The notes under the pieces are model-generated. The model was not told the origin of the DNA. It did not search any database and was given only the letters and a program-made list of their open reading frames with translations. 64,000 bases of DNA, taken from the IMG/VR virus record IMGVR_UViG_3300020045_008999, positions 160,001 through 224,000 of that record. One strand, given 5' to 3'. The translations under genes and the position numbers were made by a program. This DNA is from a virus. Lineage: Duplodnaviria > Heunggongvirae > Uroviricota > Caudoviricetes. Below, piece by piece: positions 361 to 18,088 of this stretch (the stretch's first letter is position 1; each line of letters opens with the position of its first letter).

Positions 361-370
361 ATAGTATATA

Positions 371-1414
371 TTATTCTAGACCATCTTTAATTTCTGCTAT
401 CAAATCCAGGAAGTTTTCTTCATTTAATGTTAAGTCATCGTTCCAGATCTCAAAGTGTCGTTGATACTTTAAGATTAGTTTAATATGGTATATATTGTCT
501 ACAAATAGAACAGGCAAGCATTGACTATCGAAGTATCCCTCACCACTTATTTCTATATCTACATCACCGGCATAAGTAGAAGCTAAATTATTATCTGTGC
601 AATAAAAACCACCACTAACTGTATTTGGGGAACCCTCTAGGGTAGTTAATTGATTATTCTCACAATAAAAACTACCACTAACTACAGTCGGTGACCCCTT
701 TAGTAAAGTTAGTTTATTACTTGTACATGAAAAGTCACCACCCACCGATTGTGGTACCCCTTCAAAACTAGTTAATTGATTATCATCACAATAAAAACTA
801 CCACCAACTGTATTTGGCGAACCCACTAACGTAGTTAATCCATTACACTGGCAGTTAAAACCACGACTAACTGTAATAGGCCCACCCACTAACGTAGTTA
901 ATTGATTATCATTACAATGAAAATTACCGACCACTGAGGTAGGTCCACCAAGCAAACTAGTTAATTGATTATCATTACAATGAAAATTACCGACCACTGA
1001 GGTAGGGGATCCTTCTAAGGTAGTTAATTTATTATAACTACATTTGAAAATACCCCCAACTGTAGTAGGGGATCCCTCTAACGTAGTTAATTGATTATCA
1101 TCACAGTGGAAATTACCGCCAACTGTAGTAGGGGATCCCTCTAAGGTAGTTAAATGATTATCGTCACAATGGAAATTACCACCAACTGTAGTAGGGGATC
1201 CCTCTAAGGTAGTTAATTTATTATCATCACAATGGAAATTACCACTTACATTTCTAAACTTTAATGGTAGTTTTTCTAGTCCCCAATTAACTATTACCAC
1301 AAAATCATTCACATCAATAGATCCATCCGAGTTTATTGAATAGTTTTCAATTTGGTAAAATTTACATAATAAATCAATGCGGTCCTTTTCTTCTTTACTA
1401 ATTAAATTCTTCAT
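371..1414 (-). CDS. LRR family A protein (longest copy, about 10 repeats)
   Basis: Conserved N-cap, tandem 22-aa repeats FxCxxNxLTTLEGSPTTVGG, conserved C-cap ending DGLE. Confidence 0.93.
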   Translation of the reverse strand: MKNLISKEEKDRIDLLCKFYQIENYSINSDGSIDVNDFVVIVNWGLEKLPLKFRNVSGNFHCDDNKLTTLEGSPTTVGGNFHCDDNHLTTLEGSPTTVGGNFHCDDNQLTTLEGSPTTVGGIFKCSYNKLTTLEGSPTSVVGNFHCNDNQLTSLLGGPTSVVGNFHCNDNQLTTLVGGPITVSRGFNCQCNGLTTLVGSPNTVGGSFYCDDNQLTSFEGVPQSVGGDFSCTSNKLTLLKGSPTVVSGSFYCENNQLTTLEGSPNTVSGGFYCTDNNLASTYAGDVDIEISGEGYFDSQCLPVLFVDNIYHIKLILKYQRHFEIWNDDLTLNEENFLDLIAEIKDGLE

Positions 1415-1424
1415 GGCTTATATA

Positions 1425-2153
1425 TTAAAGTAAACCATCTTCAATTTCTGTTATTAAATCCTTGAAATTTTCTTCGTTTAATGTAAGGTCATCATTCCAT
1501 ATAAAAAAATGTCTTTGGTATTTTAGAATCAACTTAATATGGATAAGGTTAGTAATAAGCACCGATGGCAATCTATTTGATTTAAAATTTATACTATTTT
1601 CTACTTCTATATCAGTATCGCCTGAGTATGTAGAAACTATTTGATTGCTACTACAATCAAAATTATATCCAATTGTAGTCGGTGCACCCACCAATGATTT
1701 AATAAAATTATTGGAGCATATATAATAACCACCAATCGTAGTAGGAGAACTCTCTAATGTGACCAACCTATTGTATGAGCATTCATAATTACCACCCACT
1801 GTAACCGGCCCACCCACTAATGAAGTTAATTGATTATCATTACAATGATAATCCTCACCCACTATATGTGGAGAACCCTCTAATGAAGTCAATTTATTGT
1901 ATGAACAAGTAAAATAAACCCCGACAGTATGGGGGGAACCAGACAAAGATGTTAAGTTATTCTGATTGCATTTAAAATATCCAGTTACATTACCAAAGCG
2001 CAATGGTAAATGTGATATAGTCATACCAGTTAATTTCACATTACCATCCACATCAACAGATCCATCCGAGTTTATTGAATAGTTTTCGATTTCATATTCT
2101 TTGCAGATTAAATCGATCTGGTCCTTTTCTTCTTTAGATATTAAGTTCTTCAT
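1425..2153 (-). CDS. LRR family A protein
   Basis: ORF track 1425..2168; family-conserved start MKNLISKEEKD at 2153. Confidence 0.92.
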   Translation of the reverse strand: MKNLISKEEKDQIDLICKEYEIENYSINSDGSVDVDGNVKLTGMTISHLPLRFGNVTGYFKCNQNNLTSLSGSPHTVGVYFTCSYNKLTSLEGSPHIVGEDYHCNDNQLTSLVGGPVTVGGNYECSYNRLVTLESSPTTIGGYYICSNNFIKSLVGAPTTIGYNFDCSSNQIVSTYSGDTDIEVENSINFKSNRLPSVLITNLIHIKLILKYQRHFFIWNDDLTLNEENFKDLITEIEDGLL

Positions 2154-2198
2154 GTGGTAACGTATCAACTATGTTAGTTTGACTATATATTAAAACTA

Positions 2199-2750
2199 TT
2201 ATTCCAACCCCTCTTGGATTTCCAATATTAAAGTGTTGAAATTTTCTTCATTCAAAGTAAGATCAGCATTCCATATAAAGAAATGTCTTTGGTATTTCAA
2301 AATTAATTTAATATGATTATTATTCTTTTCTAAAATATCAGGCATTTTATGTATCCCCAGATTAAGGTCACTATATAAATCCCCAACGGTCTCATTGTCA
2401 ACATTACCGGAATAGGTGGAAATTAAATAATTTACCGCAAAGCGAAAATGTTTCCCGACATATTCTGGACAACCTTCCAATGTAGTCAAATTATTATTCT
2501 CACATTCATAATGACCACCGACACATATTGGGCCGCCCACTAATGTAGTTAATTTATTTCTATTGATCTCAAAGCTACCACTTACCTTGCCAAAACGCAA
2601 CGGTAAACTCAGTAATCCTCTCTGATTTAAATTAACATTACCATCTACATCAATAGAGCCATCCGAGTTTATCGAATAATTTTTAATTTGATAGCGTAAG
2701 CATTCCAGGTCGATCTGGTCCTTTTCTTCTTTAGATATTAAGTTCTTCAT
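2199..2750 (-). CDS. LRR family A protein (short)
   Basis: Conserved caps and 22-aa repeats. Confidence 0.92.
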   Translation of the reverse strand: MKNLISKEEKDQIDLECLRYQIKNYSINSDGSIDVDGNVNLNQRGLLSLPLRFGKVSGSFEINRNKLTTLVGGPICVGGHYECENNNLTTLEGCPEYVGKHFRFAVNYLISTYSGNVDNETVGDLYSDLNLGIHKMPDILEKNNNHIKLILKYQRHFFIWNADLTLNEENFNTLILEIQEGLE

Positions 2751-2774
2751 GAGATAACGGTGTTTGTCTATATA

Positions 2775-3383
2775 TTATTCTAGGCCGTCTTTAATTTCAT
2801 CCAGAAGTATCTGGAAGTTTTCTTCATTAAATGACAAATCATCATTCCAGATCATGAAATACCTCTGATACTTTATAATAGTACTAAGGTGTTCGTTATT
2901 ATCCATAAACACTTTAGGCAATAACTGAGTTTGTGGGTTTATTAGGTACACTCCACTCACATTTATATCGGTATCACCAGAATACGTAGATGTGATTTTA
3001 TTATTACCCACATTAAATTTGCCACCAACCGTTGTGGGTGCACCGACCAAGTCAGTCAGCTTATTGCTGCTACATGCAAAAATACTACCAACGGTGACCG
3101 GGCCACCAATCAAATTAGTCAATTTGTTATCGTTACAGTTAAATACACCACCAACCGTATGAGGGGATCCCTCTAAGGTAGTTAATGAATTCAGAGAACA
3201 ATAAAAACTACCAGACACATTACCAAATTTAATAGGAAGATTTTTCAGGTCTAAATTTCGTATACTCGCGTCACCATCAACGTCGATGGAACCATCTGGG
3301 TTTATCGAATAGTTTTTGATTCTATGTTTTTTACATATTAAATCAATCTGGTCCTTTTCTTCCTTGGTGATTAAGTTTTTCAT
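2775..3383 (-). CDS. LRR family A protein
   Basis: Conserved caps and 22-aa repeats. Confidence 0.92.
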   Translation of the reverse strand: MKNLITKEEKDQIDLICKKHRIKNYSINPDGSIDVDGDASIRNLDLKNLPIKFGNVSGSFYCSLNSLTTLEGSPHTVGGVFNCNDNKLTNLIGGPVTVGSIFACSSNKLTDLVGAPTTVGGKFNVGNNKITSTYSGDTDINVSGVYLINPQTQLLPKVFMDNNEHLSTIIKYQRYFMIWNDDLSFNEENFQILLDEIKDGLE

Positions 3384-3393
3384 AAATTTATTT

Positions 3394-4008
3394 TTATTCT
3401 AATCCCTCTTCTATTTCTAATAACAAATCCTTGAAATTTTCTTCGTTTAATGTAAGGTCATCATTCCAGATTTCAAAATGTCGTTGGTATTTCAAGATCA
3501 ATTTAATAACAACTTTGTTATGGCAATTACTAAGAAATTGCTGAGGTAATTTATTATTATTATTACAGTCAAAACTACCAATGATATCAATATCAATATC
3601 ACCAGAAAATATAGAAATTAGGTCATTGTGCATACAAAAAAACCCACCACCTATACTCTCAGGGGCACCCTCTAATGTGGTTAGTGCATTTAAATAACAA
3701 TGATAACTACCACCTACGGTAACTGGTCCACCCACCAATGAAATCAATTTATTAGTACAGCATGAATAACCCTTACCTACGGTAACCGGAGAACCTTTTA
3801 GAGTAGTTAACTTATTGTGATTGCATGAAAAATTACCAGATACTTTACCAAACTGTAATGGTAATTTTATTAAATGTCTATCCCTTAAATCCACATCACC
3901 ATCAACGTCAATAGATCCATCTGAGTTAATGGTATAGTTTTTTATTTTATATTCTTTGCATATAAAATCGATCTGGTCCTTTTCTTCCTTGGTGATTAAG
4001 TTCTTCAT
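3394..4008 (-). CDS. LRR family A protein
   Basis: Conserved caps and 22-aa repeats. Confidence 0.92.
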   Translation of the reverse strand: MKNLITKEEKDQIDFICKEYKIKNYTINSDGSIDVDGDVDLRDRHLIKLPLQFGKVSGNFSCNHNKLTTLKGSPVTVGKGYSCCTNKLISLVGGPVTVGGSYHCYLNALTTLEGAPESIGGGFFCMHNDLISIFSGDIDIDIIGSFDCNNNNKLPQQFLSNCHNKVVIKLILKYQRHFEIWNDDLTLNEENFKDLLLEIEEGLE

Positions 4009-4018
4009 ATAGTATATA

Positions 4019-4621
4019 TTATTCTAAACCATCTTCAATTTCTAATATAAGATCATTAAAATTTTCCTCGTTTAATGTAAGGTCATCATTCCAGATTTCA
4101 AAATGTCGTTGGTACTTTAAGATTATTTTAATATGGTCGATATTGTCATTAAATAATTGTGGTAATGAGGCCACATGCGAAAAAACATCTGATATTTCAA
4201 TATCAATATTTCCAGAATATGTAGAAATTAACTTATAGTTTTCGTAGCATATATATATGCCACCCACCATAGTAGGTGAACCCTCTAATGAAGTTAATTC
4301 ATTATAACTACAATTGAAAATACCCCCAACGGTAGTAGGCGATCCCTCTAAGGAAGTCAAAACATTATGATCACAATAAAAATTACCATTAACGGTAACT
4401 GGCGAACCTTCTAATGTAGTTAATTTATTACTAGCACAATCGAATTTACCAGATACTTTATTGAATTTAATCGGCATTTTAGTTAGTCCTATGTTGAATA
4501 AATCCACACTACCATCAACATTGATGGAACCATCCGAGTTTATGATATAGTTTGTGATTCTATATTGAATGCATATTAAATCAATCTGGTCCTTTTCTTC
4601 TTTAGTAATTAAGTTCTTCAT
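4019..4621 (-). CDS. LRR family A protein
   Basis: Conserved caps and 22-aa repeats. Confidence 0.92.
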   Translation of the reverse strand: MKNLITKEEKDQIDLICIQYRITNYIINSDGSINVDGSVDLFNIGLTKMPIKFNKVSGKFDCASNKLTTLEGSPVTVNGNFYCDHNVLTSLEGSPTTVGGIFNCSYNELTSLEGSPTMVGGIYICYENYKLISTYSGNIDIEISDVFSHVASLPQLFNDNIDHIKIILKYQRHFEIWNDDLTLNEENFNDLILEIEDGLE

Positions 4622-4635
4622 AAATTTATTCTTTT

Positions 4636-5487
4636 TTATTTTAAACCATCTTCAATTTCTAATAGCAAGTCATTGAAATTTTCATCATTTAATGATAAGT
4701 CATCATTCCAGATACTAAAATAGCGTTGGTACTTTAGAATCAATTTAATGTTTTCAGCATTATCTTGTAACAATTGTGGTAAGTAGGTATGATTAAAATA
4801 AAATTCTTCACCCACTTCAATGTCATTATCACCCGAATGGGTGGATATTAAATCATTATTACAATGGAAGTTGCCTTTAATCGTTTTGGGACAACCAATA
4901 AGAGTGCTTATTTGGTTAGAATTGCATACAAAATCACAATTAATTACTTCCGGGGATCCTACCAGGGATGTTATATTATTAAGCATGCAATAAATATTAC
5001 CCTTGATAGTATTTGGAATACCTTTAAATGAGGTTAAATTATTACTAGAACAATCAAAATCACCACCCACCGAAGTAGGTGCACCTTCCAATGTAGTCAA
5101 ATCGTTACCACCACATCTGAAGTGTAGACCAACCTCAACCGGACTACCATGCAGCGATCTTAGTTTATTTTCGACACAATCATACGCGTTCCCCACTATT
5201 GATGGACCACCAATCAAATTAACTAATTTGTTGTCAGCACAATCAAAGTAGTTTCCTACTTCATAAGGGCAACCATCTAATGTGGTTAGCATATTACTAG
5301 AACAGATGAAATCCTTACTGACTTTTCCAAAACGCAGGGGTAACTTAGTTAAACTTTCCATATATAAATTCACATCACCATCTACATCAATAGATCCATC
5401 CGAGTTTATGGTATAGTTTTTAATATTATATTTATCACAAATTGAATCAATACGATCCTTTTCTTCTTTACTGATTAAGTTCTTCAT
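4636..5487 (-). CDS. LRR family A protein (long)
   Basis: Conserved caps and 22-aa repeats. Confidence 0.92.
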   Translation of the reverse strand: MKNLISKEEKDRIDSICDKYNIKNYTINSDGSIDVDGDVNLYMESLTKLPLRFGKVSKDFICSSNMLTTLDGCPYEVGNYFDCADNKLVNLIGGPSIVGNAYDCVENKLRSLHGSPVEVGLHFRCGGNDLTTLEGAPTSVGGDFDCSSNNLTSFKGIPNTIKGNIYCMLNNITSLVGSPEVINCDFVCNSNQISTLIGCPKTIKGNFHCNNDLISTHSGDNDIEVGEEFYFNHTYLPQLLQDNAENIKLILKYQRYFSIWNDDLSLNDENFNDLLLEIEDGLK

Positions 5488-5536
5488 AGTACTATATATT
5501 AGATATTAAAAACTCACATGGAATCATAATATTTAT

Positions 5537-5544
5537 TACATTTG
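5537..5544 (+). promoter_or_regulatory. Bacteroidota-type -7 box, antisense to the LRR array
   Basis: TACATTTG upstream of the ATG at 5583. Confidence 0.5.
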
Positions 5545-5582
5545 TACCCATCATTAATAATATGCTGTAAATATACTCAATT

Positions 5583-6036
5583 ATGTCTATCAGTTTGAAA
5601 ACCATACCCCCAAATTATTCACCGGTTTTATTCGAAATGTTTTACATGGTGCCCGATGAAAAAACGGGGGAAGAATATTATTACTTCAAGGATAAAACGA
5701 TTAGCCGTGATCGCTATACTCCTATATTTCTGAAATGAATTAAAATCAACACATATGAATTTTCATTTTATAGTAGTATAAAAGGGGAATACGGTCGTTT
5801 TTTTTACAATTGAATTTGGATTGGGGTTCAGAACTATCAACGAAATTCAAGGACTTTTTACATACGGTAGATTTATAATGGATAATGATTATGAATTATC
5901 GTTGGACTCATGTAAAAAGATTTATGATTTAAATCTGACCATTGGCTATTATGATAACCAGGGTGTTGAGATAATTGAATATGATCAGATGGCAATACAA
6001 CGCCGCATTACCATCAATGATATTTTATATTCTTAA
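5583..6036 (+). pseudogene. Probable decayed gene inserted antisense in the array
   Basis: ATG 5583; in-frame TGA 5736-5738; same frame stays open to a T8 run (5798-5805), where removing one T joins ORF 5821..6036, which ends QRRITINDILYS. Confidence 0.5.
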
Positions 6037-6038
6037 TA

Positions 6039-6641
6039 TTATTCTAGGCCATCTTTAATTTCATCAAGCAATTCTTGAAAGTTTTCATCATTCAATGATA
6101 GATCGGCATTCCAGATCTCAAAATGTCGCTGATATTTTAAAATTAGTTTAATGTGTACAATATTATCTTGTAATAGTTGTGGTAATTCATCACCTATGCA
6201 TCTAAATTTACCACCCAATTCAATATCTATATCACCGGAATAGGTAGAAATTATCTCACTATGTATGTAATTAATATCCCCACCAATTATGTGGGGAGTC
6301 CCCTCTAATGAAGTCAGCTCATTACCATAACAATGAAAATTACCACCTACCGATGATGGCCCACCTATTAATGAAGTTAATTGATTGCAAGAACAACTAA
6401 AATCACCACCAACCGTAATTGGGGATCCCTCTAATGTAGTCAGTTTATTAACACTACAATTAAAATTACCACTGACATTATTAAATGTTAATGGTAATTT
6501 ATTAAATTTCAGTAATGCTAAATTTACATCACCATTAACATCAATCGATCCATCTGAAGTGATATTATAATTTTCAATATTGAGATTGGTGCATATTGAA
6601 TCAATTCGATCCTTTTCTTCTTTACTAATTAAGTTCTTCAT
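6039..6641 (-). CDS. LRR family A protein
   Basis: Conserved caps and 22-aa repeats. Confidence 0.92.
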   Translation of the reverse strand: MKNLISKEEKDRIDSICTNLNIENYNITSDGSIDVNGDVNLALLKFNKLPLTFNNVSGNFNCSVNKLTTLEGSPITVGGDFSCSCNQLTSLIGGPSSVGGNFHCYGNELTSLEGTPHIIGGDINYIHSEIISTYSGDIDIELGGKFRCIGDELPQLLQDNIVHIKLILKYQRHFEIWNADLSLNDENFQELLDEIKDGLE

Positions 6642-6660
6642 GGTTTAATAGGGTTTCATT

Positions 6661-6703
6661 ATATATAAAATCTAATAACTCAAAGTGGTCAGCTCAGATA
6701 CTA
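6661..6703. repeat. Empty/collapsed form of the intergenic element
   Basis: Left flank (tatataaaatctaataactcaaagtggtcagc, cf. 7864-7898) joined directly to right flank (tcagatacta, cf. 11344-11353). Confidence 0.65.
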
Positions 6704-7306
6704 TTCTAAACCATCTTCTATTTCAGTTATCAAAACCTGGAAGTTTTCTTCGTTTAATGTTAAGTCATCGTTCCAGATCTCAAAATGTCGCTGATATTTT
6801 AAAATTAGTTTAATGTGTACAATATTATCTTGTAATAGTTGTGGTAAGTTGTTACAAATACTCATATTGACAAAACCATTCACTTCAATATCTACATCAC
6901 CTGCATAGGTAGAAGTTAACTTGTTATATGCACAAATTAAATTACCACCAATTGTGTGAGGTGCACCTTCTAATGTAGATAGTTGATTATTATAGCACTG
7001 ATAATTACCACCTACTGATGATGGACCTCCTACTAATGAAGTTAAGTTGTTCCTATAACAATGAAAATTATAGCCCACCGATTGTGGAGCACCTTCTAAT
7101 GTAGATAGTTGATTAGTATCACAACAAAAATTGTCACTTACCGTACCAAACTGCAAGGGTAGTTTTTCTAGTTTCCACCTTACAAATAACATACTTCCAT
7201 CTACATCAATAGACGCATCCGGATTAATGGAATAGTTTTTTATGCGGTATTGCTTACATATTAAATCAATTTGATCCTTTTCTTCTTTACTAATTAAGTT
7301 CTTCAT
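6701..7306 (-). CDS. LRR family A protein
   Basis: Conserved caps and 22-aa repeats. Confidence 0.92.
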   Translation of the reverse strand: MKNLISKEEKDQIDLICKQYRIKNYSINPDASIDVDGSMLFVRWKLEKLPLQFGTVSDNFCCDTNQLSTLEGAPQSVGYNFHCYRNNLTSLVGGPSSVGGNYQCYNNQLSTLEGAPHTIGGNLICAYNKLTSTYAGDVDIEVNGFVNMSICNNLPQLLQDNIVHIKLILKYQRHFEIWNDDLTLNEENFQVLITEIEDGLE

Positions 7307-7318
7307 AAATTCATTCTT

Positions 7319-7858
7319 TTATTCTAATCCCTCTTCTATTTCTAATATCAAATCTTTAAAGTTATCAACATTAAGTGTCAGATCATCATTCCAAATCATA
7401 AAGTGTCTCTGGTACTTCAAGATCAGTTTAATGTGTATAATATTATCTTGTAATAATTGTGGTAATTCATTATTAGACAATTCCACGTCACCCACCAATT
7501 CAATATCTATATCCCCGGAATAGGTAGACGTTAACTTGTTACGTGAACAAATTAAATCACCTACAACCGTATGAGGTGCCCCCTCTAATGAAGTTATTTC
7601 ATTATAATAACAACTAAAATCACCACCAACGGTAATCGGCCCACCCTCTAAGGAAGTTAGGTTGTTCATATAACAATAGAAATCACCACTCACTTTATTA
7701 AATTTTATTGGAAATTCCACTAAATCAACATTGACTATTCTAACATAACCATCTACATCAATAGACCCATCCGGATTAATGCTATACTTCATGATGCTAT
7801 ATTGGGTACATATTGAATCAATTCGATCCTTTTCTTCTTTGGTAATTAAGTTCTTCAT
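7319..7858 (-). CDS. LRR family A protein (short)
   Basis: Conserved caps and 22-aa repeats. Confidence 0.92.
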   Translation of the reverse strand: MKNLITKEEKDRIDSICTQYSIMKYSINPDGSIDVDGYVRIVNVDLVEFPIKFNKVSGDFYCYMNNLTSLEGGPITVGGDFSCYYNEITSLEGAPHTVVGDLICSRNKLTSTYSGDIDIELVGDVELSNNELPQLLQDNIIHIKLILKYQRHFMIWNDDLTLNVDNFKDLILEIEEGLE

Positions 7859-10341: not shown

Positions 10342-11079
10342 TTATTCTAGCCCGTCGTCAATTTCTAATATTAAATCATTGAAGTTATCAATATTCAATG
10401 ATAAGTCATCATTCCAGATCTCAAAGTGTCTCTGGTATTTTAAAATCAATTTGATGTGGTGTATGTTAGCCATAAGCTGATGAGGTAACCTATTATCACC
10501 AAATTCAAGTTCACTATCCTCACTATCCACTTCTATGTCAATATCACCTGAGTATGTAGATGTCAATTTATTCGCACTACAATTAAAATTGCCACTTATA
10601 GTGATAGGCAAACCCACCATTGTAGTCAATATATTAAAATTACAGTTAAAATCACCACCAACAGAAATAGGCGATCCCTCTAATGACGTCAGCCGATTCT
10701 CAATACAATCAAACTGACCACCCACCGTATGAGGTCCACCCACTAAGGTAGATAAATCATTGTCACCGCAATCAAAATCACCGCCCACTGTATGTGGTGC
10801 GCCCTCTAATGAAGTTATTTGATTAAAGTGGCAGTAGAAATCACCACCAACTGTATGAGGAGATCCTTCCAATGAAGTTATTTGATTAAACGAGCATATG
10901 AAATGACCCGAAACTTTACCAAATTTCAATGGCAATTGTATTAATTTTTTACTCGAAATAAACACATCCCCATCAACATCAACAGATCCATTCGAATTAA
11001 TCGAATAATTTTCAATTTGATAATCTTTACATATTAAATCGATCTGGTCCTTTTCACCTTTGCTAATTAAATTTTTCAT
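10342..11079 (-). CDS. LRR family A protein
   Basis: Conserved caps and 22-aa repeats. Confidence 0.92.
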   Translation of the reverse strand: MKNLISKGEKDQIDLICKDYQIENYSINSNGSVDVDGDVFISSKKLIQLPLKFGKVSGHFICSFNQITSLEGSPHTVGGDFYCHFNQITSLEGAPHTVGGDFDCGDNDLSTLVGGPHTVGGQFDCIENRLTSLEGSPISVGGDFNCNFNILTTMVGLPITISGNFNCSANKLTSTYSGDIDIEVDSEDSELEFGDNRLPHQLMANIHHIKLILKYQRHFEIWNDDLSLNIDNFNDLILEIDDGLE

Positions 11080-11114
11080 AAGCTATATATAAAAATTAGA
11101 TCCATCAAAGCGGC

Positions 11115-11350
11115 CAGCGAACCGATAGGTGAGCTGCATATTATATTAAACTTTAACAGTTTTAATTTGTAAATGTTAGATATATTCATTAACTTTGTGT
11201 TGGTACCTTACACTCAAGTACTACACTATAAAGTGCCAATATAAAGATACAAAATATAGTAATACAAAGCAAGTCTTTAATGTAAAAGTTATGAACGATG
11301 TTAACGAAGTGTCTTATCAACGATGTTATAAACAATCGCTCACTCAGACA
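11115..11350. repeat. Intergenic element copy E2
   Basis: Hairpin 11115-11136 identical to E1; TTTG 11166 / TAACTTTG 11190-11197; inverted repeat 11193-11210 / 11229-11246; opposing promoter; gttatcaac-like repeats; truncated right end cgctcact 11337-11344. Confidence 0.9.
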
Positions 11351-11962
11351 CTACTGTAGCCCCTCTTCTATTTCAGAAATCAAATTCTGGAAGTTTTCTT
11401 CATTTAATGTAAGATCATCATTCCATATAAAGAAATACCTCTGGTACTTTAATATTAGTTTAGTAACAACGTTATTATGTTCCATATTAGACTTAAGGAG
11501 TGGCGGTAATGTATCACCTGGACAAAAAAATCCTAAAACTTCAATATCCACATCACCAGAATAAGTTGAGGTTAATTTGTTACCATTGCACTCAAAATCA
11601 CCACCAACAGTAACCGGGCCACCCACAAGTGAAGTCAATTTATTTCCATGACAGTGGTAATCACCACCAACAGTATGTGGACCACCATCTAATGAAGTCA
11701 ACTGATTTTGACCACATCTAAAATCACCACCAACAGTATGTGGACCGTCCTCTAATGTAGTCAAGAAGTTCGATGTACAAGAAAATCTACCAGAAATCTT
11801 ACCAAATTTCAATGGGAACTTAACTAAGTTCTCACTATATAAATTCACATTGCCATCCACATCAATCGATCCATCTGAGTTGATTGTATAATTCTCGATG
11901 CCGTATTGATCACATATTAAATCGATCTGGTCCTTTTCACCTTTGCTAATTAAATTTTTCAT
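11351..11962 (-). CDS. LRR family A protein
   Basis: Conserved caps and 22-aa repeats. Confidence 0.92.
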   Translation of the reverse strand: MKNLISKGEKDQIDLICDQYGIENYTINSDGSIDVDGNVNLYSENLVKFPLKFGKISGRFSCTSNFLTTLEDGPHTVGGDFRCGQNQLTSLDGGPHTVGGDYHCHGNKLTSLVGGPVTVGGDFECNGNKLTSTYSGDVDIEVLGFFCPGDTLPPLLKSNMEHNNVVTKLILKYQRYFFIWNDDLTLNEENFQNLISEIEEGLQ

Positions 11963-11972
11963 AAGCTATATA

Positions 11973-12515
11973 TTATTCTAATCCATCTTCAATTTCAGCT
12001 ATCAAATCAGCAAAGTTATCTGCATTCAAAGTTAAGTCATCGTTCCAGATTTCAAAATGCCTCTGGAACTTCAAGATTAGTTTAATATGATCCAGGTTAT
12101 CCAATAATTGCTGTGGTAGTAGACTGTTGTCGGCACATCTTACAATTCCGGATACGTCAATATCCGTATCACCTGTGTAAGTAGAAGTTAAATTATTATA
12201 ACTACAATAGAAATCACCACCAACCGTATGTGGGGATCCCTCTAATGAAGTTAAAACATTGTACCCACATCTAAAATCACCACCAACTGTAGCCGGGCAA
12301 CCGTCTAATGAAGTCAAGTAATTACCAAGGCAACTGAAATTACCAGTCACTTTTCCAAATTTCAAAGGTATAACAGATATTTCTTCTTCGTGTAATGCTA
12401 CATCACCATTCACATCAACTGAACCATCTGAGTTGATCGAATAGTTCTCGATGTCGTATTGTTTACATATTAAATCAATTTGATCCTTTTCTTCTTTAGA
12501 TATTAAATTCTTCAT
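11973..12515 (-). CDS. LRR family A protein (short)
   Basis: Conserved caps and 22-aa repeats. Confidence 0.92.
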   Translation of the reverse strand: MKNLISKEEKDQIDLICKQYDIENYSINSDGSVDVNGDVALHEEEISVIPLKFGKVTGNFSCLGNYLTSLDGCPATVGGDFRCGYNVLTSLEGSPHTVGGDFYCSYNNLTSTYTGDTDIDVSGIVRCADNSLLPQQLLDNLDHIKLILKFQRHFEIWNDDLTLNADNFADLIAEIEDGLE

Positions 12516-12526
12516 AAAACTATATA

Positions 12527-13135
12527 TTATTTCAACCCCTCTTCAATTTCTGCTATCAAATTCAGGAAGTTTTCCTCATTCAAAGATAGATCATCGTTCC
12601 AGATTTCAAAATGTCTCTGGTACTTCAAAATTAGTTTAATATGATCCATATGATCAATAACTAGCTGAGGTAACTGTAAAAATGTGTCACCTGAGTATAA
12701 ATCGCCAGCGAATTCAATATCAATATCCCCAGAATAGGTAGACGTAATGTTATTATTAGTACATTTTAAATCACCACCAATAATACTTGGACTACATTCC
12801 AACGTAGTTAAATTGTTATAACTACAATAAAAATCACCAACTACCGTATGTGGTCCACCCTCCAATGAAGTTAATTCATTATAATAACAATTAAAATCAC
12901 CACCAATTATAGTAGGCGATCCCACCAATGTAGTCAAATGATTAAACGAACATGAGAAATGACCAGAAACTTTACCAAATTTTAATGGTAATTGTATTAA
13001 TTTTTTCCTCGAAATAAACACATCCCCATCAACATCAATAGATCCATCCGAGTTAATTTTATATTTCTTTATATTGTATAGATAGCATATCGAATCGATA
13101 CGATCCTTTTCTTCTTTGTTAATTAAGTTCTTCAT
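12527..13135 (-). CDS. LRR family A protein
   Basis: Conserved caps and 22-aa repeats. Confidence 0.92.
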   Translation of the reverse strand: MKNLINKEEKDRIDSICYLYNIKKYKINSDGSIDVDGDVFISRKKLIQLPLKFGKVSGHFSCSFNHLTTLVGSPTIIGGDFNCYYNELTSLEGGPHTVVGDFYCSYNNLTTLECSPSIIGGDLKCTNNNITSTYSGDIDIEFAGDLYSGDTFLQLPQLVIDHMDHIKLILKYQRHFEIWNDDLSLNEENFLNLIAEIEEGLK

Positions 13136-13146
13136 GTAGCTATATA

Positions 13147-13707
13147 TTATTCTAATCCCTCTTTAATTTCTGCTATCAAATCATTGAAGTTTTCTTCGTT
13201 CAATGTTAGATCCTCATTCCAGATCATAAATGGTCGCTGGTACTTCAGAATCAATTTAATATGACCCAGGTTATCCACCAATTGCTGAGGTAGGTGGTTA
13301 GAATTGACACTTGTGACATCGGAAATGCATCTTATAATACCGGATACCTCAATATCAGTATCACCAGCGTAAGTAGAAGTTAGAACATTATACGTGATAT
13401 CAAAATAACCCCCAACATATGCCGGGCATCCCACCAATGATGTCAGCATATTATCCTCACAATCAAAATCACCACCAACATTCTTAGGGGAACCTACCAG
13501 TGATTTCAAGCCATTCGAATCACATCGGAAAACACCAGATACATTATTGAATTTTACTGGAATTACGATTAAGCCGCTATCCGCTAAATTGACATCCCCC
13601 TTTACATCAATCGATCCATCCGAGTTAATCGAATAATTCTTGATGCCAAATTCTTCACATATCAAATCAATTTGATCCTTTTCTTCTTTACTAATTAAGT
13701 TCTTCAT
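13147..13707 (-). CDS. LRR family A protein (short)
   Basis: Conserved caps and 22-aa repeats. Confidence 0.92.
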   Translation of the reverse strand: MKNLISKEEKDQIDLICEEFGIKNYSINSDGSIDVKGDVNLADSGLIVIPVKFNNVSGVFRCDSNGLKSLVGSPKNVGGDFDCEDNMLTSLVGCPAYVGGYFDITYNVLTSTYAGDTDIEVSGIIRCISDVTSVNSNHLPQQLVDNLGHIKLILKYQRPFMIWNEDLTLNEENFNDLIAEIKEGLE

Positions 13708-13717
13708 GGCCTATATA

Positions 13718-14569
13718 TTATTCTAACCCCTCGTTAATTTCTGCTATCAAATCATTGAAATTTTCTTCGTTCAGACTAAGATCTTCATTCCAGATCATAA
13801 AATGCCGCTGGTACTTTAAAATTAATACTATGTGTTCTATATTTTCATTAAACAGTTGAGGCAGTGTACTATTTGTAAAGCATACGTCAGCCCTCAACTC
13901 AATGTCTATATCACCAGAATATGTAGATGTCAACAGGTTTTTTTTACAATCGAAATAACCACAAGTAGCAGTTGGGGCACCCTCTAAAGATGTCAATTTA
14001 TTATGACCACATAGCAAATCACCGCCAACCCACTCAGGACCCCCCACTAATGAAGTCAACTGATTGTGACTACAATAAAAATTACCTTTCACTGTGGTAG
14101 GTGAGCCATGTAATGTAGTCAACATATTAAAGAAGCAGCTATAGCCTTTTCCGATCGTAGTAGGCCCATCCACTAATGAAGTCAAACGATTATCATCACA
14201 GTTAAAATGCCCACCAACCTCAACCGGACCCCCCACTAATGAAGTCAAATAATTATGACCACAGTCAAAATATCCACTCACCGTAGTAGGACAACCCACT
14301 AATGAAGTCAATTGATTTTTGACACAATCGAAACCACCCACCGTAGTAGGACAACCCACTAATGAAGTCAATTGATTATCATTACAAATAAAATTCCCAG
14401 ATACCGTATTAAATTTTATTGGCAACTCTTTTAATTTTTGCTCATGTAAGTTTACATCACCATCAACATCAATCGACCCATCCGAGTTGATAGTATAATT
14501 TTCGATTCGGTGGTCATTACATATCTCATCGATACGATCCTTTTCTTCTTTGGTAATTAAATTCTTCAT
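13718..14569 (-). CDS. LRR family A protein (long)
   Basis: Conserved caps; near-identical tandem NQLTSLVGCPTTV units. Confidence 0.92.
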   Translation of the reverse strand: MKNLITKEEKDRIDEICNDHRIENYTINSDGSIDVDGDVNLHEQKLKELPIKFNTVSGNFICNDNQLTSLVGCPTTVGGFDCVKNQLTSLVGCPTTVSGYFDCGHNYLTSLVGGPVEVGGHFNCDDNRLTSLVDGPTTIGKGYSCFFNMLTTLHGSPTTVKGNFYCSHNQLTSLVGGPEWVGGDLLCGHNKLTSLEGAPTATCGYFDCKKNLLTSTYSGDIDIELRADVCFTNSTLPQLFNENIEHIVLILKYQRHFMIWNEDLSLNEENFNDLIAEINEGLE

Positions 14570-14579
14570 GGTCTATATA

Positions 14580-15120
14580 TTATTCTAAGCCGTCTTTAAT
14601 ATCTGCAATCAGATTGTTAAAGTTTTCTTCATTCAATGTTAGATCATCATTCCAGATCATGAAATGCCGCTGGTACTTTAAAATTAATAAGATGTGCTCT
14701 ATATTATCATTAAACAGTTGAGGTAACGGATTACTTACAATATTAACATTCTCACCTATTTCAATATCAATATCCATTAAATAGGTGGTGGTTATATTAT
14801 TAAAGGAACAATCGAAACTACCCAAAATAGTAACCGGACATCCATTCAATGAAGTTAGACTATTATTGTTACAATAAAAATACCCACCCACCGTAGTAGG
14901 TGAGCCCTCCAGAGATGTCAATTTGTTTAAAACACAATTGAAATTACCAGACACAATGTTGAATCTTACCGGAAATTTAGTTATTTTTTTTATCAAATAA
15001 ATCTACATTGCCGTGCACGTCAATTGATCCATCTGAGTTAATTGAATAGTTTTTAATATTTTCATTAGAGCATATTCTATCGATACGATCCTTTTCTTCT
15101 TTGCTTATTAAGTTCTTCAT
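14580..15120 (-). pseudogene. LRR family A gene frameshifted in an A8 homopolymer
   Basis: MKNLISKEEKDRID starts at 15120; span is 541 nt (3n+1); A8 run (T8 at 14984-14991) restores the frame into ORF 14580..14996 if A7. Confidence 0.85.
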
Positions 15121-15131
15121 ATAAATATTTA

Positions 15132-15734
15132 CTATTCCAACCCTTCTTCAATTTCCGATATCAAATCCTTGAAGTTTTTTTTATTTAAGGTAAGATCATC
15201 ATTCCAAATATAAAAATGTCGCTGGTACTTTAAGATCAATTTGATGTGATTTATATTTGTGATAAGTGATTTATATATTTTTTTACCTGGGTAAAAATCG
15301 CCACCAAAATCAATATCGATATCACCAGAATACGTAGAACGGATAGGTGTATCCTCAAAAAATAAATCACCACCAATGGTATGAGGTGCTCCCTCTAATG
15401 AAGTTAATTCAATATTACCACTGCAAACAAAATCACCATTAACCACATTCGGGGCACCATTTAGTGATGTTAGTCTATTATCACTACACTTAAAATTACC
15501 ACCCACCGTAGTAGGACCACCCTCTAATGATGTCAATAGATTAAAATTACATCCAAAATCACCAGTTATCTTACCGAACTTCAATGGCAGCTTAACTATA
15601 TCTATATTAAATATACTGACATCACCATCCACATCAACTGAACCATCCGAGTTGATCGAATAATTCACGATTCCGTATTGATCACATATTAAATCAATAC
15701 GATCCTTTTCCTCTTTACTAATTAAGTTCTTCAT
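15132..15734 (-). CDS. LRR family A protein
   Basis: ORF track 15132..15764; family-conserved start at 15734. Confidence 0.92.
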   Translation of the reverse strand: MKNLISKEEKDRIDLICDQYGIVNYSINSDGSVDVDGDVSIFNIDIVKLPLKFGKITGDFGCNFNLLTSLEGGPTTVGGNFKCSDNRLTSLNGAPNVVNGDFVCSGNIELTSLEGAPHTIGGDLFFEDTPIRSTYSGDIDIDFGGDFYPGKKIYKSLITNINHIKLILKYQRHFYIWNDDLTLNKKNFKDLISEIEEGLE

Positions 15735-15851
15735 ATATCTATATATAAAATCCAAATCACTCAAAGGTGGCCGACTTACGTAGTTATAATCGCAGTGAGC
15801 GGCATAATTCTACCCATCTTGTTCCAATCTTTATGTTAGCGTAGGTATGAG

Positions 15852-16419
15852 TTATTCAAGTATTTGTGAAATTATCCACGTTCTATACAATTTTGCTAGA
15901 TCATACGATTCCGGATTTGCTAATTGGTCCATGCGTAATCCCAGCCTAAATAATTCGATAATCGTATCTATATCATTATTGATCCCGGAAAAACATCCAT
16001 CAATGTTGGTGGTAATTCCGTCAAATGAATGAATGAATGTGAAAATCAATATCACAAAAATAATTACCACCAACTTTACTTGGACCGAATTCCAATGATG
16101 TTAGTTTATTTTCACAGCAATAAAAACACTCACCGATAATACTTGGACCGAATTCCAATGATGTTAATTCATTTTCACAACACAAAAAATCACCAGTAAC
16201 TTCAATAGGACAACCGTATAATGTACTGAGCTTATTTTGTACACATATAAAGTCACCAATAACCTTATTAAACCGCAATGGTAGCTCAGTTAAATTTTGA
16301 CCACATAGATCAACCCCATCATAAGCATCAATTGTACCATCGTCATTAATGTCGTAGCCGGAAATTGAATACTTCTGACAGATATCCTCGATTTTATTAT
16401 TTCGTTCAGAATTATCCAT
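15852..16419 (-). pseudogene. Diverged LRR gene (family B tail) frameshifted at a (CATT)4 microsatellite
   Basis: ORF 16021..16419 and ORF 15852..16073 join in frame if one 4-bp unit at 16024-16039 is removed (568-4=564 nt); restored C-terminus LYRTWIISQILE. Confidence 0.8.
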
Positions 16420-16465
16420 AATTGTATTTTTCCTAAGTATTGAATATAAAAAGAAACTCGTAATG

Positions 16466-17206
16466 CTATTTATTTAATTGTTTAGTGTATTTTTTCTTTA
16501 TCATTTGTTTTGTTAGCTTTTCCTTATCACCATCTTCAACAATTCTAATTATTATACTATCGATACCAACGTCCTTGATCATCTTATCTAAGGTAACAGA
16601 ATGACCAGATTTTAAATTGTTTAGTAAGCCATCATTTTTACTAGTATATACTATAAATTTTTTATTTACCTGATTGGTTATGACAACAGAATAACGCTTG
16701 CTTTGTGTGAATAAATGAGATGGATATAGGTATAACTTTTCATGCAATTGTTTTAATGACTTATATCCCAAAACATCTTTCATAATATTGATCGACTTAT
16801 GTACTTCGGTATCCTCTGCTCCTTTGATAAATAGATTGTATCTTTCGTTGGGATTATTATTATCGTTAAATTCAATATTGGTTAGATCCTGGACCATAGA
16901 ATATTCTCTTATAAGCCTTTCTTCATCAGCGCGATCAGATGACAACATTTTGACAATTAGTCGACTACCAGAGTCCAGAATTCCCTTTATTAGTTTATTC
17001 TTTCTTACATTTATATTAGTTGCCTTTTGTAGATCTAATATGTGGAATGCAATCCTCCCCTTTATATTACTAGTTGATCCAATATAAAAATCATTTATCA
17101 TATACACCCCAGATGTATACGTATCTTCAATATCCGCAAACCATTTTATGTTATCAGAAACATAATTTATCAATAGTTTTTTCTTATCAACCTCAGTTTT
17201 TGTCAT
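16466..17206 (-). CDS. GIY-YIG family endonuclease
   Basis: SGVYMINDFYIGSTSNIKGRIAFH motif plus downstream E and N (EERLIREY...LTN). Confidence 0.75.
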   Translation of the reverse strand: MTKTEVDKKKLLINYVSDNIKWFADIEDTYTSGVYMINDFYIGSTSNIKGRIAFHILDLQKATNINVRKNKLIKGILDSGSRLIVKMLSSDRADEERLIREYSMVQDLTNIEFNDNNNPNERYNLFIKGAEDTEVHKSINIMKDVLGYKSLKQLHEKLYLYPSHLFTQSKRYSVVITNQVNKKFIVYTSKNDGLLNNLKSGHSVTLDKMIKDVGIDSIIIRIVEDGDKEKLTKQMIKKKYTKQLNK

Positions 17207-17485
17207 TTGTATATAAATTAATCAATTATATACAAATGATATGTGAAAGTTTAGTGATGTGTAAAATAAATAATCAAATAAATACTAGTGAATATTTAAC
17301 ATATTAAATTTGTATAAGAACTTTAAATTTCTTAACTTTGTGTTGGCACCTTATACTCTACTACTAGACTATAGTGTGCCAACATAAAGATACTAATTAA
17401 TACAATACAAAACAAGACTCATAGACAAAAGTTATCAACAATCGTTCACTGCGTTTATAAATACGTTAGCGACACCACTCTGATA

Positions 17486-18088
17486 CTATTCTAATCCGTC
17501 TTCAATTTCTGCTATCAAATTCTGGAAGTTTTCCTCATTTAAAGTTAAGTCATCATTCCAGATGAAGAAATGTCTTTGGTACTTCAAGATCAATTTAATG
17601 TGATGTACATTATTCTTCAATTGCTGTGGTAGGATGTTTAAGCTACATGTTACAATTCCGGATACGTCAATATCCGTATCACCTGAGTAAGTAGAAGTTA
17701 ATTTATTATTACTACAATATAAATTACTACCAACCGATTGTGGTGCCCCCACTAATGAAGTTAAACCATTGTACCCACATCTGAAATTCCCACCAACAGA
17801 TGTAGGTGATCCTTCCAATGACGTCAACATATTAATACTACAATAAAAATCATCACCAACTGTATGAGGGGATCCCTCTAAGGTAGTTAATATGTTCATT
17901 GAACAAGAAAATTTACCGGTCACATTACCAAATCGCAATGGTAATTGTTTTAAGCGTTTATGTTCTAAATCAACATCTCCCTCAACGTCAATGGATCCAT
18001 CAGCATTAATAGTGTAATGCCTAATATGAGATCTTCTACAAATCGAATCAATACGGTTCTTTTCCTCTATACTAATTAAGTTTTTCAT
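17486..18088 (-). CDS. LRR family A protein
   Basis: Conserved caps and 22-aa repeats. Confidence 0.92.
   Translation of the reverse strand: MKNLISIEEKNRIDSICRRSHIRHYTINADGSIDVEGDVDLEHKRLKQLPLRFGNVTGKFSCSMNILTTLEGSPHTVGDDFYCSINMLTSLEGSPTSVGGNFRCGYNGLTSLVGAPQSVGSNLYCSNNKLTSTYSGDTDIDVSGIVTCSLNILPQQLKNNVHHIKLILKYQRHFFIWNDDLTLNEENFQNLIAEIEDGLE

What the first reader, a model, noticed from the sequence alone, without database searches (positions are those of the whole stretch)
474..18088. Patchwork segment sharing among non-adjacent LRR genes (shuffling or gene conversion)
Seen: 474-583 is identical to 9692-9801 (110 bp), although those genes differ at the N-terminus. Other shared blocks: 7319 and 8975 (RIDSICTQYSIMKYSINPDG, CYYNEITSLEGAPHTV); 8226 and 11351 (TLPPLLKSNM.HNNVV); 8226 and 6701 (NEENFQVLI); 10342 and 12527 (VFIS.KKLIQLPLKFGKVSGHF); 10342 and 11351 (MKNLISKGEKD); 11973 and 17486 (GDTDIDVSGIV). 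Near-identical adjacent 66-bp units lie inside 371..1414, 8226..8963 and 16021..16419. One gene has different closest relatives for different segments. Inference: new members arise by modular recombination plus repeat expansion, not just whole-gene duplication.
Basis: partly seen in the sequence, partly recalled or inferred. Interest (0 to 1): 0.8.

Follow-up and report, generated by a model that had tools for sequence, protein, structure and literature searches.

The report
Recombining LRR gene family in megaphage
A 597-kb bacteriophage carries about 100 copies of a small leucine-rich-repeat gene. The copies are old and divergent but have swapped short DNA patches with several different partners, which is a familiar way for such families to evolve but is seen here at unusual scale in a virus.

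Summary
Window 474-583 and 9692-9801 are identical over 110 nt. All seven listed shared blocks are 42-134-nt tracts of at least 95% DNA identity. The repeat unit is 63 bp, not 66.

The window array is part of a family of 96 intact genes, about 10% of a 597-kb phage genome. Each gene has an N-cap, 2-11 Internalin-J-type 21-residue LRR units and a C-cap.

Paralogs are about 60-65% identical. Even so, 62 of 87 parsed genes share near-identical tracts with others, and 45 do so with two or more partners. Third-codon identity is 0.93 inside tracts and 0.43 outside. A null model allowing for site conservation and pair divergence is exceeded. N-cap and C-tail histories disagree more than simulations on one shared tree allow. 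Gene 115381- is a three-donor mosaic (Fisher p = 5e-25).

The best reading is sporadic short-patch ectopic gene conversion, a few unequal crossovers and occasional 63-nt unit duplication.

Limits:
- The PHI test was negative.
- Short blocks in the caps are not individually significant.
- Tract ends do not follow unit boundaries.
- One-to-one orthologues in a related phage show that the paralogs are kept stably.

The mechanism is familiar. This scan had already noted similar arrays in other megaphages.

The parts
1..19585 (-). Minus-strand array of 24 complete LRR paralogs plus 2 broken ones. It is part of a 96-gene family spread over genome 33-180 kb. Each gene has a 58-codon N-cap, 2-11 units of 21 codons and a C-cap of about 70 codons.
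   Evidence: ORFs and translations. Whole-genome HMM hits: 96 ORFs with both caps. Protein lengths step by 21 aa.
465..598 (-). Conversion tract in gene 371..1414. It is 134 nt at 99% identity to the tract in gene 9589..10317, with an exact core at 474-583.
   Evidence: Bonferroni-corrected run probability 9e-6.
9683..9816 (-). Partner tract in gene 9589..10317, with an exact core at 9692-9801.
7672..7781 (-). Tract in gene 7319..7858 (gene nt 78-187). It is 99% identical to a paralog at genome 157959, left of the window. The same gene matches gene 8975..9577 on both sides of this tract (A-B-A pattern).
   Evidence: 95-nt exact match; tracts; identity profile.
7750..7840 (-). Tract in gene 7319..7858 (gene nt 19-109), 95% identical to 9469-9559 of gene 8975..9577. 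A second tract, 7538-7613, matches 9194-9269.
6109..6185 (-). 77-nt exact tract in gene 6039..6641. Its partner is 6771-6847 in gene 6701..7306.
   Evidence: Highest score in the site-aware test (23.0 against a simulated maximum of 16.8).
10900..10991 (-). 92-nt tract (95%) in gene 10342..11079. Its partner is 12956-13047 in gene 12527..13135.
11029..11079 (-). 51-nt exact tract at the 5' end of gene 10342..11079. Its partner is 11912-11962 in gene 11351..11962. The match continues 11 nt into the upstream spacer.
12140..12209 (-). 70-nt tract (96%) in gene 11973..12515. Its partner is 17650-17719 in gene 17486..18088.
   Evidence: (family D13).
17742..17859 (-). 118-nt tract (98%, 80 nt exact) in gene 17486..18088. 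It is shared with mosaic gene 115381-, which lies 62 kb away outside the window.
600..1245 (-). 10.3 tandem 63-nt units in gene 371..1414. The first three units are 92-94% identical, which indicates recent unit duplication.
8622..8772 (-). 2.4 tandem 63-nt units at 93% identity in gene 8226..8963, indicating recent unit duplication.
16466..17206 (-). GIY-YIG endonuclease-like gene inside the array. It is followed by a divergent LRR gene without a C-cap (16021..16419).
   Evidence: Pfam GIY-YIG E=1.7e-4. It is the only GIY-YIG match in the genome, 23.4 bits and above the cut-off.
19910..20596 (-). Endonuclease-like gene at the head of the array.
   Evidence: PHROG 4645 'endonuclease', E=3.2e-6.

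Best explanation
The window holds part of an old family of about 100 small cytoplasmic LRR proteins in a 597-kb phage that is probably Flavobacterium-associated. The paralogs have diverged to about 60-65% nucleotide identity and are individually conserved between related phages.

On top of this, sporadic ectopic homologous recombination has copied short stretches (35-134 nt, up to 251 nt in one pair) from one paralog into another. This is mostly short-patch, non-reciprocal gene conversion primed on the conserved caps and repeat framework. It occurs between neighbours and between genes up to 62 kb apart, on either strand, and sometimes out of repeat register. A few single-breakpoint chimeras (for example 371..1414) fit unequal crossing-over. 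Slipped or unequal alignment of the 63-nt unit occasionally adds units.

Shown: the tracts, their statistical excess, the mosaic partner structure, the incongruence between caps and the unit duplications. Inferred: that the process is conversion rather than double crossover; that the phage's own RecA/UvsX-like recombinase drives it; and that it matters because it re-assorts the hypervariable concave-face residues of a set of binding proteins.
For: - Exact inter-gene matches of 110, 95, 80, 79, 78, 77 and 76 nt occur in pairs that are 46-79% identical in the 100 nt flanking each side on the same diagonal (Bonferroni p 1e-5 to 5e-20).
- There are 115 extended tracts. 62 of 87 genes are involved, and 45 have two or more partners.
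- The site-aware and pair-aware null is exceeded: 7 pairs pass the global threshold and 30 against 3.8 expected have p<0.01.
- Third-codon identity is 0.934 inside tracts and 0.432 outside.
- Gene 115381- is about 90% like 111055- at nt 14-107, 97-99% like 177486- at nt 103-347, and 99% like 169589- at nt 360-545. The two main parents are 47-60% alike in those regions. Fisher p = 4.6e-25.
- C-tail data fit the N-cap tree far worse than expected under one shared tree (dlnL 508 against a null of 184 +/- 50).
- Nearest neighbours in the N-cap and the C-tail coincide for 3.9% of genes against 16.4 +/- 4.7% in simulations.
- Tract partners are closer than random pairs (median 8 kb against 32 kb), but only 15 of 102 pairs are adjacent and 24% lie on opposite strands.
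- Of 20 tracts in the repeat region, 6 sit in neither the N-anchored nor the C-anchored register.
- Recent unit duplications are present.
- A RecA/UvsX-like gene is present.
- No reverse transcriptase was found, so a DGR is unlikely.
Against: - The PHI test on the 28-gene alignment is not significant (observed 2.014 against a null of 1.982).
- The AU-type test is uninformative in one direction (N data: 458 against a null of 416 +/- 65).
- The Mantel correlation is only about 1.9 sd below the null.
- In the conserved caps few tracts are individually significant.
- Comparison with orthologues in a related phage shows almost no concerted-evolution sites (0-1 against 18-63 per pair). Exchange is therefore rare relative to phage divergence.
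- Reads and independent DNA assemblies could not be examined.
Confidence: 0.8

Rival explanations
1. The shared blocks reflect only constraint: conserved cap and framework sequence that many members keep, with no DNA transfer between paralogs.
For: The caps are strongly conserved. Gene nt 1-50 are 96% identical among many pairs. With a site-aware null only 2 N-cap pairs and 0 C-tail pairs pass the global threshold. PHI is negative.
Against: The tracts are pair-specific, not family-wide. Synonymous third positions are 93% identical inside tracts and 43% outside. The longest tracts lie in variable repeat DNA. The site-aware null is exceeded in the full-length alignment.
Confidence: 0.07
2. Recent whole-gene duplication was followed by very fast, patchy divergence (diversifying selection or local hypermutation), leaving islands of identity.
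For: Hypervariable codons (unit positions 1, 3, 5, 6, 8, 13, 17, 18) are concentrated on the predicted binding face. Orthologue differences fall largely on those positions.
Against: Genes share tracts with two or more partners that are themselves dissimilar in the same region. Divergence outside tracts includes near-saturated synonymous sites. No reverse transcriptase or DGR was found. Orthologues in a related phage show that the paralogs predate the split.
Confidence: 0.05
3. The mosaics are artefacts of metagenome assembly: paralog or strain chimeras created at shared k-mers.
For: The record is an uncultured IMG/VR contig. The longest exact inter-gene repeat, 110 nt, is below common maximum k-mer sizes (my own knowledge), so longer repeats may have been collapsed or avoided. 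Related arrays elsewhere are found only on short contigs.
Against: Mis-joining cannot create an identical block in two genes that are both present. Seven genes, including tract-bearing 17486..18088, 12527..13135 and 11973..12515, have full-length, same-length orthologues at 79-94% protein identity in independent assemblies, and an eighth (11351..11962) has one at 73%. Nearly all genes are intact ORFs with quantised lengths.
Confidence: 0.03
4. This is a programmed diversification system of the lamprey-VLR or antigenic-variation type, with silent donor cassettes copied into an expression site.
For: The genes have a capped LRR architecture with variable concave-face residues. Endonuclease-like genes lie in and next to the array.
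Against: 96 members are complete genes with their own start and, in most cases, a TATATA-containing spacer. Only about 5 are fragments. No incomplete germline gene or cassette library was seen. Orthologues are stably inherited. Tracts do not follow unit boundaries.
Confidence: 0.03

Closest known systems
Tandem LRR multigene clusters that evolve by interlocus gene conversion and unequal crossing-over (plant NLR/R-gene clusters; from general knowledge, not tested against plant data here)
   Same: Tandem arrays, variable repeat number, hypervariable solvent-exposed LRR positions, short mosaic tracts shared by different paralogs, and old paralog lineages kept despite exchange.
   Different: The genes are encoded by a bacteriophage. 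They are tiny (180-350 aa) and consist of an LRR domain alone, with dedicated N- and C-caps and no NB-ARC or kinase domain. About 100 copies make up about 10% of a viral genome.
Tandem LRR protein locus of Flavobacterium psychrophilum (Altae-Tran et al. 2020, PMC10392669, read)
   Same: Up to 19 tandem LRR genes with 2-14 internal repeats of about 22 residues, hypervariable positions, extensive recombination signatures, and the same bacterial genus as the cellular homologues found here.
   Different: Those proteins are secreted cell-surface proteins (signal peptide, T9SS signal). Their locus is full of broken gene fragments joined at 1-5-bp microhomologies, which is illegitimate recombination. 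Here the proteins have no signal peptide, nearly all genes are intact, and the tracts look like homologous patch conversion.
Internalin-J of Listeria monocytogenes (PDB 3bz5), 21-residue cysteine-ladder LRR
   Same: A profile of the family matches InlJ at E=3.5e-13 over four stretches. The unit xFxCxxNxLTSLxGxPxxVGG has 21 residues with Cys at a core position. The AF2 model is an LRR solenoid with pLDDT 96.
   Different: InlJ is a large secreted surface protein of a Gram-positive pathogen. It has no shared caps with this family and no array organisation.
Lamprey/hagfish variable lymphocyte receptors (VLR)
   Same: Capped LRR modules with diversity on the concave face and mosaic combinations of LRR sequence. 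VLR structures are among the fold matches.
   Different: VLR genes are assembled somatically from cassettes into one incomplete germline gene. Here every member is a complete inherited gene and the exchange is sporadic.
LRR arrays noted earlier in this scan in other huge phages (e1-5408138, e1-5408115, e1-5991916)
   Same: Small capped LRR paralogs in tandem arrays of megaphages, with patch exchange between copies.
   Different: Those arrays were reported with roughly 20-30 copies. This genome has 96 intact copies. I did not test homology to those arrays at sequence level.

Membership tests
Leucine-rich repeat proteins, 21-residue cysteine-ladder (Internalin-J-like) class | Tandem 20-30-residue units with an LxxLxLxxNxL-type core, here FxCxxNxL with Cys at a core position | tested here: met
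   Logo of 364 units: F2 79%, C4 93%, N7 96%, L9 88%, L12 87%, G14 83%, P16 86%. Period 63 nt.
Leucine-rich repeat proteins, 21-residue cysteine-ladder (Internalin-J-like) class | Significant sequence similarity to a solved member | tested here: met
   Family profile against PDB: Internalin-J 3bz5 E=3.5e-13, four stretches. Pfam-A gave no hit above cut-off for seven window proteins, five of them family members. LRR_4 is precomputed on a few relatives.
Leucine-rich repeat proteins, 21-residue cysteine-ladder (Internalin-J-like) class | Curved solenoid fold with one beta-strand per unit on the concave face | tested here: met
   AF2 pLDDT 96.4, pTM 0.90. All top Foldseek and VIA matches are LRR domains (IpaH, YopM, FlrP 8z5u, SspH1, VLR), with Z up to about 10. 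Foldseek E-values are weak (0.02 or higher).
Interlocus (ectopic) gene conversion among paralogs | Pair-specific tracts of near identity flanked on both sides by much lower identity, in excess of chance given site conservation | tested here: met
Interlocus (ectopic) gene conversion among paralogs | Different segments of one gene have different closest paralogs (phylogenetic incongruence) | tested here: met
   Profiles and triplet test. Parametric bootstrap on C-tail data gives z about 6.5. Nearest-neighbour coincidence is 3.9% against 16.4%. The reverse-direction AU test and PHI were not significant.
Interlocus (ectopic) gene conversion among paralogs | Non-reciprocity (donor unchanged), which separates conversion from double crossover | not testable with these tools
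   This needs ancestral or outgroup DNA for both partners. DNA of related arrays could not be fetched.
Interlocus (ectopic) gene conversion among paralogs | Concerted evolution: paralogs within a genome more alike than orthologues between genomes | tested here: not met
   Orthologue-pattern sites are 18-63 per pair against 0-1 concerted-pattern sites. Conversion here is sporadic patching, not homogenisation.
VLR-like programmed cassette assembly | One incomplete expressed gene plus many promoterless partial donor cassettes | tested here: not met
   96 complete ORFs with both caps and only about 5 fragments. Most genes have their own TATATA-containing spacer.
Diversity-generating retroelement (DGR) target family | Reverse transcriptase and a template repeat near the variable genes | tested here: not met
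   No RVT_1 match in the 597-kb genome.

The most novel reading that the evidence does not exclude
The roughly 100-gene array is a germline-encoded repertoire of intracellular LRR binders carried by a virus. Short-patch conversion between members, possibly stimulated by the endonuclease-like genes resident in the array, is the main way new concave-face combinations (new specificities against host proteins or defences) arise. That would make it a phage counterpart of plant R-gene clusters working from the parasite's side.
Probability: 0.25. Interest if true: 0.75.

Novelty: new member of a known kind. Interest (0 to 1): 0.45.

Why it matters
Large, recombining families of binding proteins usually mark an arms race; plant NLRs, VLRs and surface antigens are examples. 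A phage that spends about 10% of a 597-kb genome on about 100 individually conserved LRR genes with hypervariable faces, and re-assorts pieces of them, probably carries a large set of host-interaction specificities.

My literature searches found no description of such arrays in phages. The recombination process is not new. Its value here is to show how the repertoire diversifies, and that the paralogs are old and stably kept. That argues for many distinct targets rather than dosage or junk amplification.

Tried and rejected
- **PHI test.** Run on the 28-gene, 591-nt codon alignment, for all sites and for third positions. There was no signal. I take this as lack of power in saturated data with short tracts, but it is a genuine negative.
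- **Plain AU test of N-cap against C-tail trees.** It rejected in both directions. Parametric simulation showed the N-data rejection is expected from tree-estimation noise alone. Only the C-data direction counts.
- **UFBoot trees with iqtree for 77 taxa.** Timed out.
- **All-diagonal tract scan in pure Python.** Timed out. Replaced by seed-and-extend.
- **blastn for long high-identity HSPs.** Found only 2, because HSPs extend into diverged flanks.
- **Independent DNA of the same or related arrays.** An exact junction pattern in viral contigs gave 0 matches. The search for related loci in viral and metagenome contigs returned no usable locus. A degenerate back-translated pattern in metagenome contigs gave 0 matches. 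Cross-strain comparison was therefore limited to proteins.
- **Module-boundary hypothesis.** Tract ends do not cluster at unit boundaries.
- **DGR.** No reverse transcriptase.
- **Endonuclease stimulation.** Tracts are not visibly concentrated beside the GIY-YIG gene, so there is no support beyond co-location.
- **Triplet tests.** Those for 160371-, 167319- and 171351- (p 1e-8 to 4e-4) would not survive correction over all triplets and breakpoints. Only 115381- does.

Full report
**Context.**
The window is bases 160001-224000 of a 596,785-bp IMG/VR virus record that CheckV rates 98% complete. Window 1-19585 is a minus-strand array of about 26 ORFs of 130-350 aa. Each ORF shares the following parts:
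- a 58-residue N-cap that starts MKNLISKEEKD;
- n copies of a 21-residue unit;
- a C-cap that ends ...KLILKYQRHFxIWNDDLTLNEENF...EDGLE.

Cap HMMs built from the window genes find 96 ORFs in the genome with both caps, between 33 and 180 kb on both strands, plus about 5 fragments. I parsed 87 of them cleanly. They total 59,970 nt, which is 10.0% of the genome. Protein lengths step by 21 residues: 180, 200, 221, 242, 263, 283, 304, 325 and 347.

**What the proteins are.**
- Pfam gives nothing above cut-off and PHROGs gives nothing.
- A family profile matches Internalin-J (PDB 3bz5) at E=3.5e-13.
- An AlphaFold2 model of gene 6701..7306 has pLDDT 96.4.
- Every top structural match is an LRR domain: IpaH, YopM, SspH1, FlrP 8z5u and VLRs, with VIA Z up to about 10. 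Foldseek E-values are weak.
- The unit logo from 364 units is xFxCxxNxLTSLxGxPxxVGG. High entropy sits at positions 1, 3, 5, 6 and 8, the x positions around the beta-strand that form the concave face in known LRRs. Positions 13, 17 and 18 are also variable.
- The charged N-terminus lies mostly in the model's first helix (residues 7-19), so there is no sign of a signal peptide.
- ESM-Atlas neighbours are almost all viral 'hypothetical proteins'.
- Single copies occur in four Flavobacterium genomes. In one of them the copy lies beside a large serine recombinase, with BrxA about 4 kb downstream.

**Checking the observation.**
- Window 474-583 equals 9692-9801 exactly over 110 nt.
- All the other listed peptide blocks exist and correspond to DNA tracts of 42-134 nt at 95-100% identity.
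- The unit is 63 bp, not 66.
- Adjacent near-identical units are confirmed in 371..1414 (three units at 92-94%) and 8226..8963 (93%). The units in 16021..16419 are only 78% alike.

**Is it more than chance or constraint?**
The family is deeply diverged, with mean pairwise nucleotide identity of 0.60-0.68.
- *Exact matches.* Inter-gene exact matches reach 110, 95, 80, 79, 78, 77 and 76 nt in pairs whose 100-nt flanks on the same diagonal are 46-79% identical. Bonferroni-corrected run probabilities are 1e-5 to 5e-20.
- *Extended tracts.* Seed-and-extend gives 115 tracts (median 54 nt, maximum 251 nt). They involve 62 of 87 genes, and 45 genes have two or more different partners. Of the 24 complete window genes, 22 have at least one tract and 18 have two or more partners.
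- *Site-aware null.* Conserved caps could mimic tracts, so I built a null in which each site keeps its family-wide match probability and each pair its overall identity. In the full-length alignment of the 28 three-repeat genes, 7 pairs exceed the global 5% threshold (observed maximum 23.0, simulated maximum 16.8). Thirty pairs have p<0.01 against 3.8 expected.
- *Caps alone.* In the caps the excess is weaker. Two pairs (N-cap) and no pairs (C-tail) pass globally, although pairs at p<0.01 are about 3.5 times more common than expected. The very short cap blocks in the finding are therefore not individually convincing.
- *Synonymous sites.* Third-codon identity is 0.934 inside tracts and 0.432 outside on the same diagonal. 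That rules out protein-level selection as the cause.

**Different partners for different segments.**
- *Gene 115381- (outside the window).* It is about 90% like 111055- at nt 14-107, 97-99% like window gene 17486..18088 at nt 103-176 and 230-347, and 99% like window gene 9589..10317 at nt 360-437 and 472-545. The two main parents are only 47-60% alike in those regions. A triplet test gives Fisher p = 4.6e-25, which survives correction over all triplets and breakpoints.
- *Window gene 7319..7858.* It shows an A-B-A pattern: gene 8975..9577, then a gene at genome 157959, then 8975..9577 again.
- *Window gene 371..1414.* It is 155095-like at its 5' end and 9589-like over its last ~480 nt, and it carries a fresh three-unit expansion.
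- *Family-wide AU test.* N-cap (174 nt) and C-tail (123 nt) trees reject each other, but I checked this against simulations on one shared topology. The N-data rejection is expected from noise (458 against 416 +/- 65). The C-data rejection is not (508 against 184 +/- 50, maximum 294).
- *Nearest neighbours.* They coincide in 3.9% of genes against 16.4 +/- 4.7% in simulations. The C-rank of the N-nearest neighbour is 29.4 against 17.5 +/- 3.0. The Mantel r is 0.21 against 0.32 +/- 0.06.
- *PHI test.* It found nothing. I attribute this to saturation and short tracts, but it counts as evidence against a strong family-wide signal.

**Geometry of exchange.**
- Tract partners lie closer together than random pairs (median 8.2 kb against 32 kb).
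- Only 15 of 102 partner pairs are adjacent genes, 24% are on opposite strands, and one pair is 62 kb apart.
- Of 20 tracts in the repeat region, 6 sit in neither the N-anchored nor the C-anchored register, for example shifts of 189 nt, which is three units.
- Apparent tract ends are scattered over the unit, mostly at variable codons. They do not pile up at unit boundaries. The exchange is therefore patch-like and not cassette-like.
- A unit's nearest unit lies in the same gene in 18 of 364 cases, against about 4 expected by chance (1.2% of unit pairs). Of the 25 units with a neighbour at 90% or more, 22 have that neighbour in another gene.

**Tempo.**
The protein search found 327 relatives, many on short contigs from other metagenomes. 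Several are clear one-to-one orthologues of individual window genes:

| External protein | Window gene | Protein identity |
|---|---|---|
| P0083 | 15132 | 94% |
| P0045 | 17486 | 91% |
| P0036 | 1425 | 87% |
| P0049 | 12527 | 84% |
| P0090 | 11973 | 83% |
| P0057 | 11351 | 73% |

Five of these lie on one 4,908-nt JGI contig. In quartets of two paralogs and their two orthologues, orthologue-pattern sites number 18-63 and concerted-pattern sites 0-1. The paralogs therefore predate the split of the two phages and are kept as distinct genes. Conversion does not homogenise them.

Some orthologue differences coincide with patches that the window gene shares with another paralog. One example is the LPPLLKSNMxHNNVV patch of 11351..11962, which is shared with 8226..8963 and absent from P0057. 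This hints at post-split conversion, but without DNA it cannot be polarised. The full-length orthologues in independent assemblies also argue against assembly chimeras.

**Mechanism.**
- *Shown:* pair-specific DNA identity tracts, multi-partner mosaics, incongruence between caps, out-of-register and inverted partners, and unit duplications.
- *Inferred:* patches flanked on both sides by diverged DNA are most simply short-tract gene conversion, for example repair of a break copied from an ectopic paralog. Single-breakpoint chimeras and gene-number change fit unequal crossing-over on the conserved block of C-tail, 10-nt spacer and N-cap (repeat families D3 and D8). Unit gain fits slippage or unequal alignment.
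- *Possible players:* the phage encodes a RecA/UvsX-like protein. The only GIY-YIG match in the genome lies inside the array at 16466..17206. A PHROG 'endonuclease' gene heads the array at 19910..20596. A role for these in making the breaks is speculation, because tracts are not concentrated beside them.
- *Excluded:* no reverse transcriptase is present, so a DGR is unlikely.

**Comparison with what is known.**
The process matches tandem LRR clusters that evolve by conversion and unequal crossing-over (plant R genes; general knowledge). The nearest bacterial case is the F. psychrophilum LRR locus, which has up to 19 tandem secreted LRR proteins and recombination at 1-5-bp microhomologies that leaves many fragments (PMC10392669). 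Here the proteins are cytoplasmic, nearly all genes are intact, and the exchange is homologous.

It is not VLR-like programmed assembly, since there is no cassette and expression-site layout. Literature searches found no description of LRR arrays in huge phages. Earlier notes of this scan describe similar recombining LRR arrays of about 20-30 genes in other megaphages. This genome has the largest set so far, but the phenomenon is not new to the scan.

**Verdict.**
The mechanism is ordinary. The scale and the viral setting are what make the array interesting.

Noticed in passing
window 361-370, 1415-1424, 4009-4018, 8964-8974, 9578-9588, 11963-11972, 12516-12526, 13136-13146, 13708-13717, 14570-14579: Most stop-to-start spacers in the array are 10-11 nt and begin TATATA, only 4-5 nt before the ATG. 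Leading genes of runs have TTTTATATATA just upstream. This could be a late-promoter-like motif giving near-leaderless mRNAs, with no Shine-Dalgarno sequence.
   Followed up: partly
window 14580-15131: Gene 14580..14996 lacks the N-cap, but the 135-nt 'spacer' upstream still encodes an N-cap remnant (...SDGSIDVHGNVDL). This is a broken, frameshifted or truncated family member.
   Followed up: partly
window 7928-8093, 11138-11303, 17281-17446, 19673-19838: A 166-nt intergenic element (63-79% identical copies, repeat family D17, with motif family D19) sits in the long gaps that head sub-blocks of the array. It is probably a promoter or regulatory region.
   Followed up: no
window 28577-57488 and 60246-60767 (genome 188577-217488, 220246-220767): Plus-strand ORFs match only the inner part of the N-cap HMM and lack the family C-cap. 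This is a second, dispersed LRR family. ORF 60246..60767 combines that N-end with a family-A-type C-cap (64 bits) and looks like a hybrid.
   Followed up: partly
genome 150976-151105 (outside the window): A 16-nt-period tandem repeat of about 130 nt lies between family genes.
   Followed up: no
L001:3474-5654 (Flavobacterium urumqiense) and L002-L004: Flavobacterium genomes carry single copies of the family (33-47% identity, same C-cap). In L001 the copy lies next to a large serine recombinase, with BrxA about 4 kb downstream, so the context looks like a mobile element or defence island. This fits a Flavobacterium-type host.
   Followed up: partly
window 18212-18277 and 18380-18445: A 66-nt direct repeat at 98% identity, spaced 168 nt apart, lies in the 756-nt gap upstream of gene 17486..18088.
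   Followed up: no
genome 111900-112997 and 136832-137495 (outside the window): Two family genes are split into an N-cap ORF and a C-cap ORF, so each is probably frameshifted. A 98-nt exact match links 111937 to 146353.
   Followed up: no
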